DNA from: the human T2T-CHM13v2.0 reference genome, Homo sapiens
DNA length: 64,000 nucleotides
Strand: one strand, 5' to 3'
NCBI RefSeq assembly: GCF_009914755.1
Contig: NC_060946.1
Under the pieces are notes generated by a model. It saw nothing but the letters and a program-made list of their open reading frames with translations, had not been told where the DNA came from and ran no database searches. Both the position numbers and the translations under genes were made by a program. Positions 1-45,417 of the stretch are shown one piece after another. The stretch's first letter is position 1. Each line of letters starts with the position of its first letter.

Positions 1-2257
1 TCAGTCCCCTCACCCCCTCACCATGGGCACCTGCAGTCTCATTCAGAGACACCCTCATCTTAGAGTCCCTGATAGTGGGGAGTTTGGCCCCTCAGAGGCC
101 TTGGTTGCTTTGGTCAATCCATAATGCCTGGGCCTGGGACCCCCACCATTTCTTGTTCATCAGGGACACAGCAGCTGTGAAGGCAGCTGCCTTCACCAGA
201 GCAGCGATGTAGCCCAGCAAGGGCAGGGACAGAGACGCAAGGTCTGGGGGATTTTTCCACAATGCTGCAGAAAGAAAGTCCCTGTGGAGCTCAGTCTCAG
301 CCATCCCTGCCCCAGCTGTGAGCTGAACTGAATTTCAGGCATCTCAGAGTCCCTTCACCTTTGCATGACCCATTTCCAGGACATGACAGGTCAAGCCCAT
401 GGGAGAGGGGATCACCCAGGTCTCCCTCATCTCCATGGACCTCCTGGGAACATTGCCAGGGTCCACTCCACCCCTGGACGCTGTCCCCAAGCTTCACCCT
501 CTTTTTATAAGTTGTACATTTTTATTATGAAGATCTTTGAACACAAAAATAGGGAGATGAAAGAATAATAATGTCCCCAAGGTTCCCATCACCGAGTCCC
601 CATAATTTTTGATTTTCAAATAATGTTGACTCACCCACAACAGAGTAAACGATTCCCTCAGACAATAGTCTGAAGCAGATGCGAAAGCCATCACAAACTT
701 AAATGGAGAGAATCAATGATTTCTTGACACGAAAAAACAGTTAACGAGGGTCTCACCAAATGTCTTGTGAATTTCATTGTGTATATTTTTAGTTGACTTC
801 GTGGTGCATTACGTATTTGTGGATTTAACTTTAGTTTCTATGTGGAGTAAATACTTGATGTTATCAGTGGTGAATGTGTTTTTAGACCCATTCTATCTAC
901 AGCTGTCTCCCAAATGGCTGTCAGGCTTTTCCTGGCAAGGCAGGAGTGGCAGGAGCAGAGAGCTGGTCCTGAGACCCTCCCACAGTCAGGATGCAGCCAC
1001 TGCCTCCCTGAGCAGGAACCCAGTGCTTCCTTTAGCTTCTCTTTTCCTGAAAAATTGTTCTAGCATCAAGAGGCTCAGTGGGGTTCAGGCTGGACATTGG
1101 CATAACTGCTTCCTAGGACATGTGGTTACTTCTAGCAAAGCCACCCATGTTCATCATTCTTTTAGTGACATTAGCTGTGTTTGATGATCGATAACTTTGT
1201 GCTTCAGATAAAAAGGAAGACAGAGGGTTGAGGCTTCCATTCACCTCCTCGTGAGAGCTGCAGTGTGTCGCTGAAGGGAGGGCCCAGCAGCTGTGCTATG
1301 AACCTAGGAGTGTGCTTCCTGCTTTGGAAAAAAGGAAGAAAAGTAGTTTCTTCCCTTTTATTCACCACTTTGATAATGGACGATCTGGTGCTCGGCCATA
1401 CTCGAGGGTGAACAGAACAACATAGAGCCAGAGTGAGCTCCAGCATGTGAGGACATCTGACATGTGGGATCCACTGCGGTTATATTGAATTGGTGATCAT
1501 GATGTGGCTACAAAACATAAACATTTGCCCACTGAGCACCTCCTCAGGGGGCACCTCATTTTCTTTCATTGCTCCGGAAGCTTCAGTGGCTCCTGATTTC
1601 GCAGAGGATGAGAGGTCCTGTCTTGTCATGTCCCTTTCCTGCCCCAGGCCTGGGATCCCCCACTGATCCCACTTCCCTTAGGAGGAGGAGGTATTTAAGG
1701 ACCACACCCTGGAGACTCTCTCATGTCCCCCATTTGAATAAGGAAATGGTAGCCATCACCCCACCTGACCTACCCAATGTAAAACCAGATTGAGGGGTCC
1801 AGGGATCAAGGATGGAGCTTCCATTTTGTTGAGGGGGACCAGCCGGGCCTCACTGGCCAGGGCCATCCCAACTGGGTCAAGACCTGGGAAGATGGGGCTG
1901 AAACTCCTGGAGTCAGGGCTAGGTTAATGGGAAGGTTCCCAGGACACTGCACTCTAGGGTAACCAGCTTCTCCCTGGAGGGAGAGGGTACTGTCTGCATC
2001 ACCCCATGGTATCACCAAGCAATCAGTGTTGAGTCAACTCCCCCAGGGAGACCAGGTATCCCTGTCCATGAAAATTCCTCCTAGTGGCATAAATGCCCTC
2101 TGATAAACTCATCCCCATGACTACATGATGGTTGGTGGGAAAACCAAACCCAAGACGCCGATGTCCTCCAGGGATCCTGCTGCTGGTCACAGGATGTCAC
2201 TTGTCCCCTTATCTGTGGGGGTGAGGGTGAGGGGTGTGTGGACTCAATGAGCAGATG

Positions 2258-2271
2258 CCACCAGGGGGAGT
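2258..2271 (+). promoter_or_regulatory. CTCF motif (forward)
   Basis: CCACCAGGGGGAGT vs consensus CCASYAGRKGGCRS. Confidence 0.55.
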
Positions 2272-2332
2272 GGCCAGAGCTTCCTTCCTCACAGCTGCAG
2301 TGGGGGCTGGGGGTAGGGGCATCCCAGGGAGG

Positions 2333-2360
2333 GGTTTTTGTATGAGCCTGTGTCACAATG
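2333..2360 (+). other. Ig lambda J-type recombination signal sequence (12-bp spacer), orphon, J coding segment absent
   Basis: GGTTTTTGT (2333-2341), ATGAGCCTGTGT (12 bp), CACAATG (2354-2360). Spacer and upstream flank match the IGLJ2/IGLJ3 RSS as I recall it, with one heptamer change. Confidence 0.85.
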
Positions 2361-3278
2361 TGGCGCTGGGTCTGCTGGCGGGCCTCCTGATGGTTCTTGC
2401 CTGTGCCCATGGCAGCAGGTGGGACAGAACAATCCTCAGGCTCCCAGGTGCTTGCCTGGAAGTGCAGCGGCGGCGAGTGGGGCAAGTCTTCCCTCAAGCC
2501 CTGGGACAGTATCTGGGTGGGCTGGTTCCCAGACACAATGAAGGTACGTGCAATTTTGTGTCAGCCCTGCTGCTGGGGGTGGGATGTGGGGTTGCTGTCA
2601 GTGGCAGCAGCCACAGGCAGATGGCTCTCAGGCTCATGCACTTGGGTTTCCTTTGTCATGGAGCTGGCCTCCTTGGTGCACTGCATTGCCCATTCCCTGG
2701 GGTGTAGGACTCTTGTGTGGGCTAGAGTGCTGGAGACGCGGTCAAACCGCTGGTCTAGCCGGCATCATGCTGCTGTAGCCCTCTAAGTGGATAAGGGGAG
2801 ATGTCAGGGGGGCTCTAGGGATGTGGAGATGCAGGGCTGTTGGGCCCCAGGGCAAGAGGCAATCCTCATGGGGTCTGGGCTCTCAAAATGGCACGTGCTG
2901 GAGCTTCTTGGATCTAAAGTGTGTGTGTGGTACCCAGCACGACTCCCTCTGGAACAATGCCATTGCGTGGACAAGTACAGGCAGCATCCTATGCTGTCTC
3001 AGGGCCCACAAGAGCTGAGGGGCTCTCCCATGGCCAGGGTTGCAGGAATCTGTGGTGGGAATGTGGACCCCTGGGAATCTCTCACTTACCTTTTCCCCTG
3101 CACTGGGGAGCTCATCTGGTCTTGCTTTTCTCTCCTTCCATATCTCGGATGGTTCTGTCACTTCCCCGCTGAATTCCAGCATTCTCTGTTAGATGCTCTA
3201 TTTGACATGTGATTATCTGTTTTGCTCCTTCTTTGTGGAGGAGACGAATGTTGGGCACCTCTAGTCAGTCACCTTGAA
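2361..3278 (-). mobile_element. Old L1 (L1M/L1MA-type) 5'UTR fragment
   Basis: GC-rich. The right end reads TTCAAGGTGACTGACTAG on the minus strand, like the L1 start CAAGATGGCTGACTAG. Truncated on the left at the RSS. Confidence 0.7.
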
Positions 3279-3289
3279 GCTCTTCTCCA

Positions 3290-3538
3290 AGTGTCATTTT
3301 TTTTTTTGAGTTTTAAAGTTGGCCTGTTGGTCTTTTTATTCCGGATACAACTCCTTTGTCAGACGTGTGCGTACTCTAAGTATTTTCAGTTATTTTGTGG
3401 GTTGTTTGGTCATTTCCTTTAAGGTGACTTTTGTTGGCTAGAAGTTTTCAATTTTGATGTAGTTCAATATATTGCTTTTTTCTCCTATGATTGGTAATTT
3501 TTGTGTCCTCTGTATGAAGACATTGTCTATTCCAAGGA
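3290..3538 (-). mobile_element. Old L1 fragment
   Basis: ggatacaactcctttgtcaga...aagttttcaattttgatgtagttcaa, typical of antisense L1 3' region. Confidence 0.65.
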
Positions 3539-3540
3539 GG

Positions 3541-3546
3541 TTATAT

Positions 3547-3587
<41 letters not shown>

Positions 3588-3918
3588 TATATATATATAC
3601 ACACACTATATATACACACTATATATACACACACTATATATATACACACTATATATGTATGTGTGTATATATATACATATATGTATACATATATATCTAT
3701 ATATGTATACATATATGTATACATATATATCTATACATATATGTATATATCTATATATGTATACATATATATCTATACATATATGTATATATCTATATAT
3801 GTATACATATATATCTATACATATATATGGATATATATCTATATATGTATACATATATATCTATACATATATATGGATATATATATCTATATATGTATAC
3901 ATATATATCTATATATAT
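3541..3918. repeat. Compound (TA)/(CA) microsatellite with higher-order units of about 32 bp
   Basis: Direct inspection. Confidence 0.95.
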
Positions 3919-4534
3919 AGCAGGGAAGCCCAAGTCTGTTTCTTCCTATCCAAATGCAGTTCAACAGTTAGGCTTACTTGTCTCTTTCTCATTTATTTAT
4001 GGGAGCTCTTTTTTTCCTGTTTTGTAATATCTTTTGGACTCCACATTTTCAATTTCATTTGCACTGCCTTTTGATATACAAAATGTGTTTATTATTTTTA
4101 GGTTTCCTGTTTTAAGAATGTTCCTCACCTTAAACCACTTGATAGAAAAATAGGAAAAGGTTATAAATAGGCAACTAATTGAAGTTAAAATAACTGATTA
4201 GTTAGCACTCCTGTGAGATTTTTCACCAAGGGAATTAGCAAGATATATATATTTTTTGAAAAAGCAACAACTTTTGTTGCTACTGAGCCTGCAGGGGAAA
4301 CGGTCCTCCTGCTTGTTCCCTGTTGATGGGAATGTGAATTGCTTCAACTTTTTGGAAAGTAACTAATCAGTATCTATTAAAAGTGTAAGTAAACATAGCT
4401 ATGGCTAAGTTATACCACTACAAAGATTCTGTCCTGTAGAAATGAAACCATCCAGTGTAAAAGATGATTGCTACAACACTATTTGTGGTGGCAAAGAGTA
4501 CTTAACTTGAATGTCCATCTGAAGGGGAATTGTT

Positions 4535-4880
4535 GGCTGGATGCAGTGGCTCATGCCTGTAATCCCAGCGCTTTGGGAGGCTGAGGTGAGTAACTTGAAG
4601 TCAGGAGTTCAAGACCAGCCTGGGCAACATGGCAAGATCCCATCTCTGAAAAAAATAGGGTGTGGTGGCATGTGCCTGTAGTCCCAGATACTTGGAAGGC
4701 AGAGGCAGGAGGATTTCTTTGGCCCAGAAGTTGTTCTTTTAATTTCTGGCCTTACTGAATCACTGGGCCCAGGAATTGCAGGCTGCAGCAAACCATGATA
4801 GTGCCACTGCATTTCAGCTTGGGTGACAGAGCAAGAACTTGTCTTAAAAAAAAAAAAGAAAGAAAGAAAGAAAAGAAAAA
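4535..4880 (+). mobile_element. AluJ with an internal insertion of about 45 bp
   Basis: Alu arms, A/GAAA tail, TSD-like gggaattg. Confidence 0.85.
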
Positions 4881-5049
4881 GCGGGAATTGCTAAGGAAAT
4901 AAAATACATTCAATATTATAAATTAGGCAGAAATTAAAATAAATACATTTGATCTACATTAGTTAGGCTTAGTAATGTCCACAATGCAGTATAAAGAGAA
5001 AAAAGTAAATTGCAATATAATGTAGGATTTCAGTATGTCATTTCAAACA

Positions 5050-6060
5050 AAACAGACAACAAAACCCTGAAAAGACAATTGAAAGTAAGTCACAAAACCC
5101 AGAAGTCATAAGAGAAAAAGAAACAATTTGACTAAATATAAATTAAAGCTTCTGTACAATAAAAGACAACATAAAGTTACAAGGCAAGACATAGACTTTA
5201 AGACAAAATACTTGCTATTCATATGCAAATAATAAATATATAGAATATGTAAAGAATATCTGTAAATGAATTAGAGAATTGGTAAAGGATATCAAGTAAT
5301 TCACAGAAAAAATATGAATAGCTAATAAATACATGCAAATATATACAATCTCACTAGTAAGTGGAGAAATACCAATTTAAAAAATGAAACTATTTTTCAA
5401 TCATCAAATTGACAAAAATTCACTATGATTGGTAATATACCCTGTAGTCAAGCATGTGAGTAAATAAAAACTCTCATATACTGATGAGAATATAAATTGG
5501 CAAATCCTTTTTGAAACATAATTTTTAATCAAAATATTAATGCTTGTACACTTTGCTCCAGTATTCCATTTCTAGGAAAATAAAGAAAATAAAACTAGCA
5601 AATATGTCAAAAGATGAATATACAGGTATGTCTATTTGAGTATTGTAGATAATAGCAAATAATTGAAACCAACATGAATGCTCCTTAGTAGAAAAGTGGC
5701 CAAATTATAGTGAACTATCCTATGGAACAATAGTGCAGCTATAAGAAGAATGAGGGAGATCTATTTGTACAGATAGGCAAAGATCTCCAAGATATATTTT
5801 ATGTGTAAAAGCCAGTCACAAAATAACACATAAAGGAAGATTGCATTTTGTAAATGTATGTGTATGTTTACATATGTATATAAATTAATAGAAAAATTAC
5901 TTACTAGAACATATGCTTTAACTTGTCAACACTTCTTTGGGAAGTTAGTGACAGTAGATGAGAGGATTAGGTTGTCAGTGAAGAGTATTATATTTAATTC
6001 TACAGACCCAAGGGCATTGTTTGAATTTTTATAACAATATGATGGATATGTTTCTTTAAT
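5050..6060 (+). mobile_element. Old L1 (L1ME-like) 3' region
   Basis: A-rich, L1 3' motifs. Confidence 0.6.
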
Positions 6061-6106
6061 TTTTATTATTTTTACCCAGGAAGAGACAGTCTCCAGCATG
6101 TGCTGA

Positions 6107-6416
<310 letters not shown>

Positions 6417-7020
6417 CTCTTCCATGTTTCTTACGTAATTTATTAAAACATATTTTAGTTTGTTGACTTGCTTACAAAAAGGTGTGTCTTAAACCTCTCT
6501 ACAATTCTACATAGAGATAATTGTCATTCACTGTGTTAAAACAGAAATAAAGACAGAGAAATACGTATATTCAAGGATGCCAATAAATGTTAATATCTAA
6601 AATTGGATTGTGATAATTGTTGCAAAACTCTGTGAATATATTAAAATACACTGAATTATATGCTTTAAATAGATACATTTTATAGTATGTGAATTATATT
6701 TTAATGAAGCAGTTAAAAATCAATGGTTTGATGTTTTAGTATTCAGTGACAAATGGCTTTAAGATGTAAGCAATAATTTCCAGTATATTTAAAAGATATT
6801 TACAATGGATATTTCTAGTTCACCCCCCTGTCAACTATTAGAAAACATTTTTATATTTTAAATCCTTGAAATAACTGAGTGAAGGTCGCTTCACAGGAGA
6901 AGTCACTGTGGTGTAGATGAGAAGGTTACTAGGTGAGGCAGAGTTGGAAGAGGCATTCTTTTCAAATGGAAATCTCTGGAAACTTCAGAAAGCAAGTATG
7001 AGGTAGGGAAATTTGCCTGG

Positions 7021-7405
7021 TGTATTAGTCTGTTCTCACACTGCTAATAAAGACATACCCAAGACTGGGTGATTTATAAAGGAAAGAGGTTTAATGGACC
7101 CGCAGTTCAGCATGGCTGAGGAGGCCTCAGGAAACTTACAAGCATGGTGGAAGGGGAAGTAAACACGTCCTTCTTCACAAGGCGGCGAGAGAAAGAAGTG
7201 CAAAGCGAAGTAGGGGGAAGCCCCTTATAAAACCATCAGAAACCATCAGATCTCATGAGAACTCACGATCACAACAGCAGCAGCACGGGGATAACCGCCC
7301 TCACAATTCAATTACCTCCCACCAGGTCCTTCCCACAACGCGTGGAGATTATGGGAACTACAATCCATGATGAGAGTTGGGTGGGGATACAGCCAAACCA
7401 TATCA
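7021..7405 (-). mobile_element. THE1 (MaLR) solo LTR
   Basis: tgtattagtctgttctcac...ccaaaccatatca, 5-bp TSD cctgg. Confidence 0.92.
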
Positions 7406-7410
7406 CCTGG

Positions 7411-8017
7411 TCATTTTCTTTTTAAGGCTTCACATATAAGTGAGATCCTATAGCATTTGTCTTTCTGTGTCTGGCTTATTTCACTTAGCATAATGTTCTG
7501 CAGGTTCATCCACATTGTTGCAAGTGGCAGGATTTCCTTCATTTTTAGTTCTGAATCGTATTCCATTATGTATATATACAACATTCTCATCATTCATCCA
7601 TCACAGCACACTTAAATTGTTTCTGTATCTTAGCTCTTGTGAACAGTGCTGCAATGAAAAGTTGAACTCATAGAAGCAGAGAGTAGATGATGGTTGCCTG
7701 GGGCGAAGGGGTAGGTAACTGGGGAGGTATTAGTCAGAGTACAAACATTCATAAGATGAATATATTCTGAGGGTGCAAAGGATAGCATGGTGACTGTAGC
7801 TAATGATACTGTATTGTGTGCTTGCAATTTACTAAGAGTCTATCAGTTGTTCTCACCACACACACAGAAAAGGTAAACATGTGAGGTGACAGATGTGTTA
7901 GTTAACTTGATTGTGGTTACTGTTTCAGAATGTATACATATATCAAATCATCACGTTGTACATCCTAAATATAAACCATTTTCATTTGTTTACTATACCT
8001 CAATAAAGCTGGAAAAA
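7411..8017 (+). mobile_element. L1MA/MB 3' end with inverted 5' segment (7411-7657 minus, 7658-8017 plus)
   Basis: Two consensus-adjacent pieces in opposite orientation; ends caataaagctggaaaaa. Confidence 0.75.
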
Positions 8018-8210
8018 TAGAATTTAGACCTGTGTGTCTTGTTTGCACACGTAGAGGTCACTTCACAGTTTTATAAATTATCAACTCTTAGTGACACAAA
8101 GGAGCAACAAAAGCAAAATATCAAGTCTGTAGTCATCTCATTAGATAAAATTACCAACTGCTCATTTTTTTTTTTTTTTTTTGCCACACAACATACTATA
8201 ACATGAAAAT

Positions 8211-8565
<355 letters not shown>

Positions 8566-8596
8566 TTATTCATTATTCTAATGGCTCAGATAGAGT

Positions 8597-45417
<36,821 letters not shown>

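What the first reader, a model, noticed from the sequence alone, without database searches (positions are those of the whole stretch)
2250..2420. Ig-lambda J RSS whose homology stops at the heptamer and joins an L1: possible fossil germline RAG signal-end insertion
Seen: a perfect nonamer GGTTTTTGT, an exact 12-bp spacer and heptamer CACAATG. No FGxG J coding segment or GT donor follows. The next bases are the broken interior of an old L1 5'UTR (2361-3278). Recalled: the spacer and upstream flank match IGLJ2/3, and IGL orphons are annotated near RFPL2/3 on 22q12. Established: RAG cuts exactly at the heptamer/coding border, and signal ends can be transposed or joined elsewhere. Inference: a breakpoint within 0-2 nt of the cut site suggests the orphon arose by RAG cleavage in the germline or early embryo, not by random duplication. 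The CAC-to-CAT change (read from the coding side) should now inactivate this RSS.
Basis: partly seen in the sequence, partly recalled or inferred. Interest (0 to 1): 0.82.

Follow-up and report, generated by a model that had tools for sequence, protein, structure and literature searches.

The report
Immunoglobulin-lambda signal relic fused to L1
A dead, displaced copy of immunoglobulin-lambda DNA stops exactly where the antibody-gene cutting enzyme would cut and is joined there to a broken L1 element, which hints at, but does not prove, an ancient cut by that enzyme in the germ line.

Summary
Window 2333-2360 is a J-lambda-type 12-RSS: nonamer GGTTTTTGT, a 12-bp spacer identical to IGLJ2/3/5, and heptamer CACAATG. 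It closes a 2.83-kb unannotated orphon copy of the IGLC4-IGLJ5 intergenic region (K2P 0.172). This copy most resembles IGLJ5, not J2/3.

Homology to IGL ends at the heptamer, within 0 to +3 nt. No J, intron or C follows anywhere in the window. From 2361 to about 3290 lies the first ~930 nt of an old L1 5'UTR on the minus strand, truncated internally at the junction.

A J4-type J-C orphon sits 10 kb upstream. It is the native neighbour of this block and is equally diverged (K2P 0.175). One donor segment ending at the J5 heptamer is therefore likely, later split by other duplicons.

In 113 kb upstream plus the window I found no second RSS, no duplication of TGGCG and no remainder of the L1. Primate orthologues could not be examined.

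I put an ordinary breakpoint that falls at the RSS border by chance at about 0.5. End-joining capture of a RAG-made signal end gets about 0.3. True transposition gets about 0.03.

The parts
1..2360 (+). Block B: an orphon copy of the IGLC4-to-IGLJ5 intergenic region. It starts 465 bp before the window, at chr22:32673535, and is not annotated in RefSeq.
   Evidence: window -465..406 matches chr22:23334417-23335285 (79%) and 477-2357 matches 23335284-23337178 (81%). There is no other paralogue in the genome. K2P is 0.172 over 1846 and 841 aligned sites.
2333..2341 (+). RSS nonamer GGTTTTTGT
   Evidence: Aligned with the nonamers of IGLJ2, J3 and J5.
2342..2353 (+). 12-bp RSS spacer ATGAGCCTGTGT
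   Evidence: Identical to the spacers of IGLJ2, J3, J5 and of the upstream orphon.
2354..2360 (+). RSS heptamer CACAATG. It has one change from the CACAGTG of J2, J3 and unit A, at the third position counted from the coding side.
2360..2364 (.). Junction zone. G2360 and TGG 2361-2363 could come from either partner, and C2364 matches neither.
   Evidence: IGL alignments end at 2357-2362. The closest L1-type relative (L042) aligns from 2360 or 2365 (92 of 117 identities to 2480).
2361..3290 (-). The first ~930 nt of an old L1 5'UTR. Its 5' end is at about 3290 and it is cut off internally at the junction, inside the variable tandem-repeat part of the 5'UTR.
   Evidence: 655 candidates; copies align back to 2381-2415 at 63-65%; copies share a further ~1.1 kb to the left and nothing beyond the equivalent of 3290; that left part carries L1 ORF1 on the minus strand. 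L042 aligns in several registers with the repeat region of the 5'UTR copies.
2185..2686 (.). RefSeq 'H3K4me1 hESC enhancer' feature lying over the junction
   Evidence: chr22:32676185-32676686. Annotation only; not tested.

Best explanation
This is an inert fossil. It is the right-hand edge of an ancient displaced copy of immunoglobulin-lambda DNA, dated at roughly 40-90 Myr by K2P 0.17.

The donor was most likely one continuous piece of the J-C cluster. It ran from about 0.7 kb upstream of a J4-type segment, through J4-C4 and the C4-J5 spacer, to the J5 RSS. At 22q12.3 it is now split. One part is a J-C orphon in an RFPL2 intron. The other is this RSS-terminated block. About 7-9 kb of other duplicated DNA separates them.

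The copy is broken at the RSS/J border and end-joined, with 0-4 nt of overlap or filler, to a break inside the 5'UTR of an older antisense L1 near the 3' end of SLC5A4. The J5-C5 side and at least 5 kb of the L1 were lost.

I take the break to be an ordinary, RAG-independent breakpoint of segmental duplication or deletion that falls at the cut site by chance. The RSS does nothing now: it has no J or C partner and its heptamer has changed at the third position.

Shown: the anatomy, the homologies, the position of the breakpoint, and the absence of the other hallmarks. Inferred: the single donor segment, the order of events and the cause of the break.
For: - Breakpoint and partners.
- L1 identity and orientation.
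- Unit A at chr22:32661908-32666526 is J4-type. It shares the J4-specific upstream stretch and carries J, intron, C and downstream DNA.
- In native coordinates unit A ends at 23334167 and block B begins at 23334417. Their distances to the native locus are equal: 0.175 over 1914 sites and 0.172 over 1846 sites.
- The locus is a mosaic with several other junctions that are not at an RSS: the left end of B against a chr17 CCDC57-like piece, the left end of A against an L1P fragment, and a palindromic duplicon at 32666537-32671973.
- No second RSS: 12 of 12 RSS-like hits in 177 kb lie inside copies of the ~300-bp high-copy repeat (Alu by recall), none is at a block edge and none is flanked by TGGCG.
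- No remainder of the L1 in chr22:32561001-32738000.
- A chance edge within about 4 nt of the one RSS border in a ~5.5-kb unit has probability near 7e-4. Across the one to two hundred IG/TR orphon edges of a genome (my estimate, not counted) about 0.1 such cases are expected.
Against: - The coincidence is sharp: the whole heptamer is kept and at most 3 nt beyond it could be J-derived.
- The ancestral heptamer was probably the functional form. J2, J3 and unit A have CACAGTG, and the window keeps TG at positions 6-7.
- The retained side is the signal-end side.
- The inferred donor piece has the shape of the J-proximal end of a V-to-J5 excision product.
- A second IGL-derived edge in the same duplicon family also sits at a J border. 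L007 and L008 end at the J splice donor. So edges at J landmarks are more frequent here than a uniform model predicts.
- The count of orphon edges used for the chance estimate is my own guess.
Confidence: 0.5

Rival explanations
1. RAG-made signal end captured by end joining. In a germ-line or early embryonic cell, RAG1/2 cleaved at the then functional J5-type 12-RSS, possibly as part of a V-to-J5 excision. The blunt signal end, carrying J4-C4 and the C4-J5 spacer behind it, was ligated into an unrelated break in an L1 5'UTR at 22q12.3. There was no transposition and therefore no target duplication.
For: - The break is 0 to +3 nt from the cleavage site with the heptamer complete.
- Units A and B are native neighbours, equally diverged, and end at the J5 heptamer.
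- Somatic precedents exist. Of 48 TCR-beta RSS-end insertions, none of the 5 with both ends recovered had a target duplication, 14 of 36 J-beta RSS-12 ends kept the full heptamer, and only 13 of 36 were near cryptic heptamers (PMC2118463, abstract and sections 5 and 10 read).
- RAG-released antibody-gene fragments reinsert into independent breaks (PMC5339680, abstract read).
- RAG-like rearrangement in germ cells is documented in sharks (PMC2193156, abstract read).
Against: - I know of no RAG activity in the mammalian germ line (my knowledge, not tested).
- No second RSS end, no reciprocal coding-end product and no cryptic heptamer abutting the junction were found. The 7 nt after the heptamer are TGGCGCT.
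- The evidence is a single post hoc coincidence, in a locus with many RAG-independent junctions.
Confidence: 0.3
2. True RAG transposition. A fragment ended by two RSSs was inserted by transesterification into the GC-rich L1 5'UTR, leaving a 5-bp target duplication.
For: The heptamer abuts GC-rich target DNA. That RAG transposition prefers such targets is recalled, not tested.
Against: - Neither candidate left end shows a heptamer. These are chr22:32673535 for block B and 32661908 for unit A.
- There is no non-Alu 23-RSS in 113 kb upstream plus the window, and no TGGCG next to any RSS-like hit.
- The other half of the L1 is absent from chr22:32561001-32738000.
Confidence: 0.03
3. A break that is independent of RAG but not random. 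The alternating purine-pyrimidine run across the spacer, heptamer and J start (TGTGTCACAGTGTG in the J2 and unit A form) adopts a non-B structure and is fragile, so breaks cluster at the RSS without RAG.
For: The run is visible. Up to 4 nt (GTGG) of possible microhomology with the L1 partner lie at the junction, as in microhomology-guided repair.
Against: There is no direct evidence. The run is short. The other orphon copies with the same run (unit A, L007, L008) are not broken there.
Confidence: 0.07
4. The junction was made on proximal 22q and then moved. The L1 piece may be the same insertion as the L1 5'UTR fragment 9.5 kb upstream of RGL4 (chr22:24128738-24128856), 0.78 Mb distal of IGLJ5 and in the same orientation. 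A deletion in a duplicated copy would then have fused the J5 RSS to it before transfer to 22q12.3.
For: That fragment is the only good genome match to window 2360-2480, and the match is reciprocal. It is 79% identical, against 58-69% for the other L1 copies. An RGL4 pseudogene lies near RFPL3.
Against: Only about 120 bp are shared. The 7.1 kb around the RGL4-side fragment share nothing else with window 1-9000 apart from the high-copy 300-bp repeat. The window's L1 continues for 800 nt that the RGL4-side copy lacks. This reading also does not explain why the break is at the heptamer.
Confidence: 0.07
5. A degenerate J segment still follows the RSS, so nothing is broken.
For: A forced global alignment places about 21 of 36 aligned bases of window 2361-2399 on J3 (my hand count on the alignment).
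Against: The local score equals that of shuffled sequence, with 53% of 2000 shuffles as good. The same bases align at 79% to an L1 5'UTR fragment. No intron or C follows.
Confidence: 0.02

Closest known systems
Immunoglobulin-lambda orphons on 22q12 (the IGLC/OR22 type; segmental-duplication relics of the J-C cluster)
   Same: It is IGL J-C cluster DNA outside the locus. It sits in the RFPL duplicon region, is ancient and is non-functional. Sister pieces lie in RFPL2 (unit A), near RFPL3 and near RFPL1/AP1B1P.
   Different: This piece has no J and no C, only intergenic DNA plus an RSS. It is not annotated, it has no paralogue among the RFPL copies, and its edge is at the RSS cleavage site.
Somatic RSS-end (signal-end) insertions in lymphocytes (PMC2118463; PMC5339680)
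   Same: An RSS heptamer is joined to unrelated chromosomal DNA without a target duplication, with a few ambiguous or extra bases at the joint.
   Different: Those events are somatic, in RAG-expressing cells. This one is fixed in the germ line, tens of millions of years old, and only one end can be recognised.
RAG-mediated transposition of signal-ended fragments
   Same: A 12-RSS heptamer abuts GC-rich target DNA.
   Different: There is no second RSS terminus, no 5-bp duplication and no second half of the target.
Germline-joined Ig genes of cartilaginous fish (PMC2193156)
   Same: Under the RAG reading, both would be traces of RAG activity in germ cells.
   Different: The shark cases are coding joints (fused VJ) in working clusters. 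This would be a stray signal end in a mammal, with no coding joint known.
Internally truncated old L1 elements at rearrangement breakpoints
   Same: The L1 keeps its 5' end and lacks everything 3' of about nt 930. Retrotransposition does not produce that, but breakage after insertion does.
   Different: The partner is an immunoglobulin RSS rather than another repeat or unique DNA.

Membership tests
J-lambda 12-RSS | Nonamer, 12-bp spacer and heptamer in J orientation | tested here: met
   Window 2333-2360. One match against 0.03 expected.
J-lambda 12-RSS | Homology of the flank to the region upstream of a J-lambda segment | tested here: met
   81% over 1.9 kb to the IGLJ5 upstream region. The spacer is identical to J2, J3 and J5.
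J-lambda 12-RSS | J coding segment (F-G-x-G, splice donor) directly after the heptamer | tested here: not met
J-lambda 12-RSS | Heptamer with CAC next to the coding flank (cleavable) | tested here: not met
   Read from the coding side the third base is T. That this abolishes cleavage is established knowledge and was not assayed.
IGL orphon (segmental-duplication relic) | IGL-derived sequence outside chr22:22.44-23.35 Mb with no intact gene | tested here: met
RAG signal-end junction (end-joining capture) | Breakpoint at the heptamer/coding border with the heptamer retained | tested here: met
   Junction zone 2360-2364.
RAG signal-end junction (end-joining capture) | Event arose in a cell expressing RAG1/2 | not testable with these tools
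   A germ-line event of this age leaves no record of expression.
RAG signal-end junction (end-joining capture) | Reciprocal coding-end product, or a partner RSS or cryptic heptamer at the joint | tested here: not met
   The 7 nt after the heptamer are TGGCGCT. No J-first orphon appears among the 22 genome matches to a J2-C2 unit. No RSS lies at a block edge.
RAG transposition | Two RSS-ended termini | tested here: not met
RAG transposition | Short (about 5-bp) target-site duplication flanking the insert | tested here: not met
   No TGGCG at either candidate left end or beside any RSS-like hit. Later rearrangement could have removed it.
L1 (LINE-1) 5'UTR | Dispersed copies that continue, in the same orientation, into L1 ORF1 and ORF2 | tested here: met
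   - 655 candidates.
- Copies extend leftwards.
- A minus-strand ORF of L1-ORF1 N-terminal type by eye (Pfam silent).
- An ORF1 C-terminal piece, 25 of 37 identical to a fragment that scores 1.4e-43 on PF02994. Its own PF17490 score, 17.8 bits, is below the cut-off of 22.2.

The most novel reading that the evidence does not exclude
The junction is a fossil of RAG1/2 cleavage in the primate (or earlier) germ line. An excised J-proximal IGL fragment ending in the J5 signal end was captured at a break in an L1 at 22q12.3. It would be the first recognisable germ-line signal-end insertion in a mammal, and a sign that RAG has occasionally reshaped mammalian genomes outside lymphocytes.
Probability: 0.3. 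Interest if true: 0.8.

Novelty: new member of a known kind. Interest (0 to 1): 0.45.

Why it matters
As it stands, this adds one unannotated, RSS-terminated piece to the known IGL orphons of 22q12. It also shows that this piece and the J-C orphon in RFPL2 probably came from a single donor segment.

The wider interest lies in the edge. RAG activity in germ cells is documented for sharks, but I know of no case in mammals. A signal end fixed in the human genome would bear on how far the recombinase has acted as a genome-shaping force after its domestication.

The locus gives a concrete, cheap test. Orthologous sites in primate and outgroup assemblies will show whether the IGL block arrived already cut at the heptamer or lost its J later.

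Tried and rejected
- Signal joint: the bases after the heptamer are not a second heptamer, and no nonamer of the right orientation follows at 12 or 23 bp. Rejected.
- Hybrid joint with a V coding end: the partner is an L1 5'UTR, not V. Rejected.
- Retrocopy of an L1 antisense-promoter transcript, or L1 insertion at the RSS border: each would leave J-C beyond the L1. None is present in the window. Rejected.
- Splice-site origin of the edge: by eye there is no usable donor or acceptor at 2360/2361 on either strand. Rejected without a tool test.
- Rest of the L1: the 5'UTR remainder plus ORF1 of four copies, used as queries, found only a 24-nt hit in chr22:32561001-32738000, and nothing in 32654001-32686000. 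ORF2 and 3' parts were not used as queries, so an ORF2 or 3' remnant of this L1 could still be present.
- Paralogues of the junction: none. Window 2361-2580 gave 3 matches: the window itself, the RGL4-side L1 fragment, and one chr7 L1.
- Reciprocal product: the RefSeq IGLCOR22-2 interval was fetched and shows no blastn similarity to the J-C cluster at all. The RFPL3-side C orphon lacks its J region through a deletion relative to RFPL2.
- Pfam on two short N-terminal ORF1-like pieces gave nothing.
- The right flank, window 3291-8540, searched against the genome, returned only the high-copy 300-bp repeat and was uninformative.
- Literature: six searches found no description of this junction or of germ-line RAG events in mammals. 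The library covers only open papers. The 1999 Genome Research paper on the RFPL duplications was seen only as a citation and could not be read. No supplementary files were consulted; supplements of PMC2118463 and PMC5339680 may hold junction tables relevant to the comparison.
- Dating against primates and a census of orphon edges could not be run.
Full report
WHAT IS THERE. Window 2333-2360 reads nonamer GGTTTTTGT, a 12-bp spacer ATGAGCCTGTGT and heptamer CACAATG. With the spacer left free and one heptamer base free, the pattern occurs once in the 64-kb window, against 0.03 expected. It is not an isolated motif.

A genome search with window 1600-2420 gave 8 matches, all on chr22. They are the window itself, the regions just upstream of IGLJ5 (80%), J3 and J2 (72%) and J4 (77%), and three orphon copies. 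Every alignment stops at window 2356-2363 (gene places).

Local BLAST against the 40-kb J-C cluster gives two alignments:
- window -465..406 on chr22:23334417-23335285, at 79%;
- window 477-2357 on 23335284-23337178, at 81% over 1930 columns.

Block B is therefore a 2.83-kb copy of the spacer between IGLC4 and IGLJ5, ending at the J5 RSS. The flank as a whole, however, is J5-type. Block B has no other paralogue in the genome and is not annotated.

WHERE HOMOLOGY STOPS. In the multiple alignment of the seven native J regions, the upstream orphon and the window, the window follows the others through the heptamer and then departs. The next 40 nt score no better against any J than shuffled versions of themselves: 8.0 against 7.80 +/- 1.26, with 53% of 2000 shuffles as good, and 41% of 85 control windows taken from the L1 piece as good. 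No reading frame holds F-G-x-G. The seven J-to-C units find nothing else in the whole window except low-complexity hits. The native locus has J5 coding at the corresponding place, so the junction is not inherited from IGL.

WHAT FOLLOWS. Window 2361-3290 is a dispersed repeat, with 655 first-look candidates and 40 scored at 67-77% identity.
- The copies share a further ~1.1 kb to the left of the window-equivalent part, and nothing beyond the equivalent of 3290.
- That left part carries L1 ORF1 on the minus strand. One piece is an N-terminal-type ORF, recognised by eye; Pfam was silent on two such pieces.
- Another is a C-terminal piece, 25 of 37 identical (E 2e-17) to an ORF1 fragment that scores 1.4e-43 on PF02994. 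Its own PF17490 match, at 17.8 bits, is below the cut-off of 22.2.

It lies on the minus strand with its 5' end at about 3290, and only its first ~930 nt remain. Retrotransposition does not make 3'-truncated copies, so the L1 was broken after it inserted.

Ordinary copies align back only to 2381-2415, at 63-65%, because this stretch is a variable tandem-repeat part of the 5'UTR. One fragment, 9.5 kb upstream of RGL4 (chr22:24128738-24128856), matches window 2360/2365-2480 at 79%, with 92 of 117 identities. It is itself made of those L1 repeat units. L1-type sequence therefore reaches the junction.

G2360 and TGG 2361-2363 could belong to either partner, and C2364 to neither. The break is therefore 0 to +3 nt from the RAG cleavage site.

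THE WIDER LOCUS. Ten kb upstream, in an RFPL2 intron, lies unit A (chr22:32661908-32666526). It runs J-upstream, RSS with CACAGTG, a J-like segment, intron, a C-like exon and about 2 kb of C7-downstream-like DNA. Its upstream stretch and its J are J4-type.

In native coordinates unit A ends at 23334167 and block B begins at 23334417. Their distances to the native cluster are the same: K2P 0.175 over 1914 sites and 0.172 over 1846 sites. I infer one donor segment, running from about 0.7 kb upstream of J4 to the J5 heptamer, that left IGL roughly 40-90 Myr ago. That range uses rates of 2.2e-9 to 1.0e-9 per site per year, which are recalled figures.

Between A and B now lie a palindromic duplicon (32666537-32671973), with many pericentromeric relatives, and pieces like a CCDC57 intron on chr17. 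The order of these events is not resolved. The duplicon's local paralogues are only 76-78% identical, so A and B may never have been adjacent at this site.

Smaller relatives of unit A lie near AP1B1P2 and in RFPL1. A C-only relative lies beside RFPL3.

TESTS OF THE RAG READING.
- The left end of B (chr22:32673535) and the left end of A (32661908, abutting a 5'-truncated L1P fragment) show no heptamer, either in the orphon or at the native counterpart.
- A scan of chr22:32561001-32738000 for heptamer-spacer-nonamer gave 12 hits. It required CAC and allowed at most 1 heptamer and 2 nonamer mismatches, with spacers of 11-13 and 22-24 bp. All 12 lie inside copies of the ~300-bp high-copy repeat (Alu by recall), none is at a block edge and none is flanked by TGGCG.
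- The remainder of this L1's 5'UTR and its ORF1 are absent from the same 177 kb.
- The bases after the heptamer are not a second heptamer, so this is not a signal joint.
- No J-first orphon that could be the reciprocal coding end appeared among the 22 genome matches to a J2-C2 unit.

True transposition is thus unsupported.

The absence of a target duplication does not exclude RAG. In thymocytes, none of the 5 RSS-end insertions with both ends recovered had one. Of 36 J-beta RSS-12 ends, 14 kept the full heptamer, and most joints carried a few extra bases (PMC2118463, abstract and sections 5 and 10). RAG-released antibody-gene fragments are also captured at unrelated breaks (PMC5339680, abstract). 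Germ-cell rearrangement by RAG-like activity is documented in sharks (PMC2193156, abstract).

WEIGHING. Several points favour RAG:
- the break is within 4 nt of the only cleavage site in a ~5.5-kb unit, about 7e-4 per edge under a uniform model;
- the whole heptamer is kept;
- the ancestral heptamer was probably functional;
- the donor piece looks like the J-proximal end of a V-to-J5 excision product.

Several points count against it:
- I know of no RAG activity in the mammalian germ line;
- only one recognisable end exists;
- the same locus holds at least four other junctions with no RSS;
- the case was picked out after the fact. With perhaps one to two hundred IG/TR orphon edges per genome (my estimate), about 0.1 chance cases are expected.

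My probabilities are as follows:
- ordinary breakpoint at the RSS border by chance: about 0.5;
- captured RAG signal end: about 0.3;
- structure-dependent fragility of the alternating purine-pyrimidine run: about 0.07;
- a junction formed on proximal 22q with the RGL4-side L1: about 0.07;
- transposition: about 0.03;
- a hidden J: about 0.02.

PRESENT FUNCTION. None as a recombination signal. There is no J or C. The heptamer's third base, read from the coding side, is T, and by established knowledge that blocks cleavage. RefSeq places an H3K4me1 hESC enhancer feature over window 2185-2686. I did not test it.

NOVELTY. The piece is a new, unannotated member of the known IGL orphons of 22q12. 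Six literature searches found no description of the junction. The key paper on the RFPL duplications could not be read. The RAG reading would be novel for mammals, but it is unproven. Primate orthologues would settle it.

Noticed in passing
chr22:32661908-32666526 (window -12092 to -7474; loci L023, L028): An unannotated J4-type IGL J-C orphon inside an RFPL2 intron. It has J-upstream, an RSS with an intact CACAGTG heptamer, a J-like segment, a full-length intron, a C-like exon and about 2 kb like the DNA downstream of IGLC7. It is 81% identical to J5-C5.
   Followed up: partly
L007 (chr22:32600953-32601501, minus) and L008 (chr22:29879295-29879843, plus): Two 550-bp paralogous fragments consist of J4-type upstream DNA, an RSS and a J-like segment. 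Their homology to unit A and to IGL stops at the last bases of J, which is the splice-donor border, and unrelated sequence follows. This is a second IGL-derived edge at a J landmark.
   Followed up: partly
L042, chr22:24128738-24128856 (9.5 kb upstream of RGL4): This is the only good genome match to window 2360-2480 and the match is reciprocal (79%). It is an L1 5'UTR repeat-region fragment. An RGL4 pseudogene lies near RFPL3. No further shared sequence was found in 7.1 kb.
   Followed up: partly
L045, chr22:32840605-32841058: The interval that RefSeq calls IGLCOR22-2 has no detectable blastn similarity to the IGL J-C cluster; the best E-value was 0.27. The real C-like copies found by search lie at chr22:32663922-32664414, 32820514-32821003, 24085674-24086115 and chr18:3554375-3554787.
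   Followed up: partly
chr22:32666537-32671973 (window -7463 to -2027): A palindromic, internally repetitive duplicon is centred on the RFPL2 / SLC5A4-AS1 divergent start sites. It has 72-78% identical copies at chr22:32583428-32588796 and 32815815-32819258, and many pericentromeric relatives on chromosomes 2, 9, 10, 14, 15, 16, 18, 20, 21 and 22.
   Followed up: no
chr22:32671986-32673532 (window -2014 to -468): Two pieces are 72-78% identical to an intron of CCDC57 on chr17 (82973732-82975221, minus). They directly abut the left end of the IGL-derived block.
   Followed up: no
chr22:32661473-32661909 (L023 7473-7909): A 5'-truncated L1P-type 3' fragment with a poly-T on the plus strand, 89-91% identical to many copies. 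It marks the end of the 94% RFPL1-RFPL2 paralogy and abuts unit A.
   Followed up: no
window 3297-3540: A poly-T run is followed by what looks, by eye and recall, like the antisense 3' end of a second, separate L1. The 5' end of the first L1 therefore sits against the tail of another. A CA repeat follows at about 3552-3585, inside a masked inverted-repeat stretch at 3538-3922. None of this was tested.
   Followed up: no
window 2185-2686: A RefSeq functional-element row, 'H3K4me1 hESC enhancer', lies over the RSS-L1 junction.
   Followed up: no
window 406-477: About 70 bp are present in the orphon block but absent from the native IGLC4-J5 spacer, where the two alignments meet at 23335284/5.
   Followed up: no
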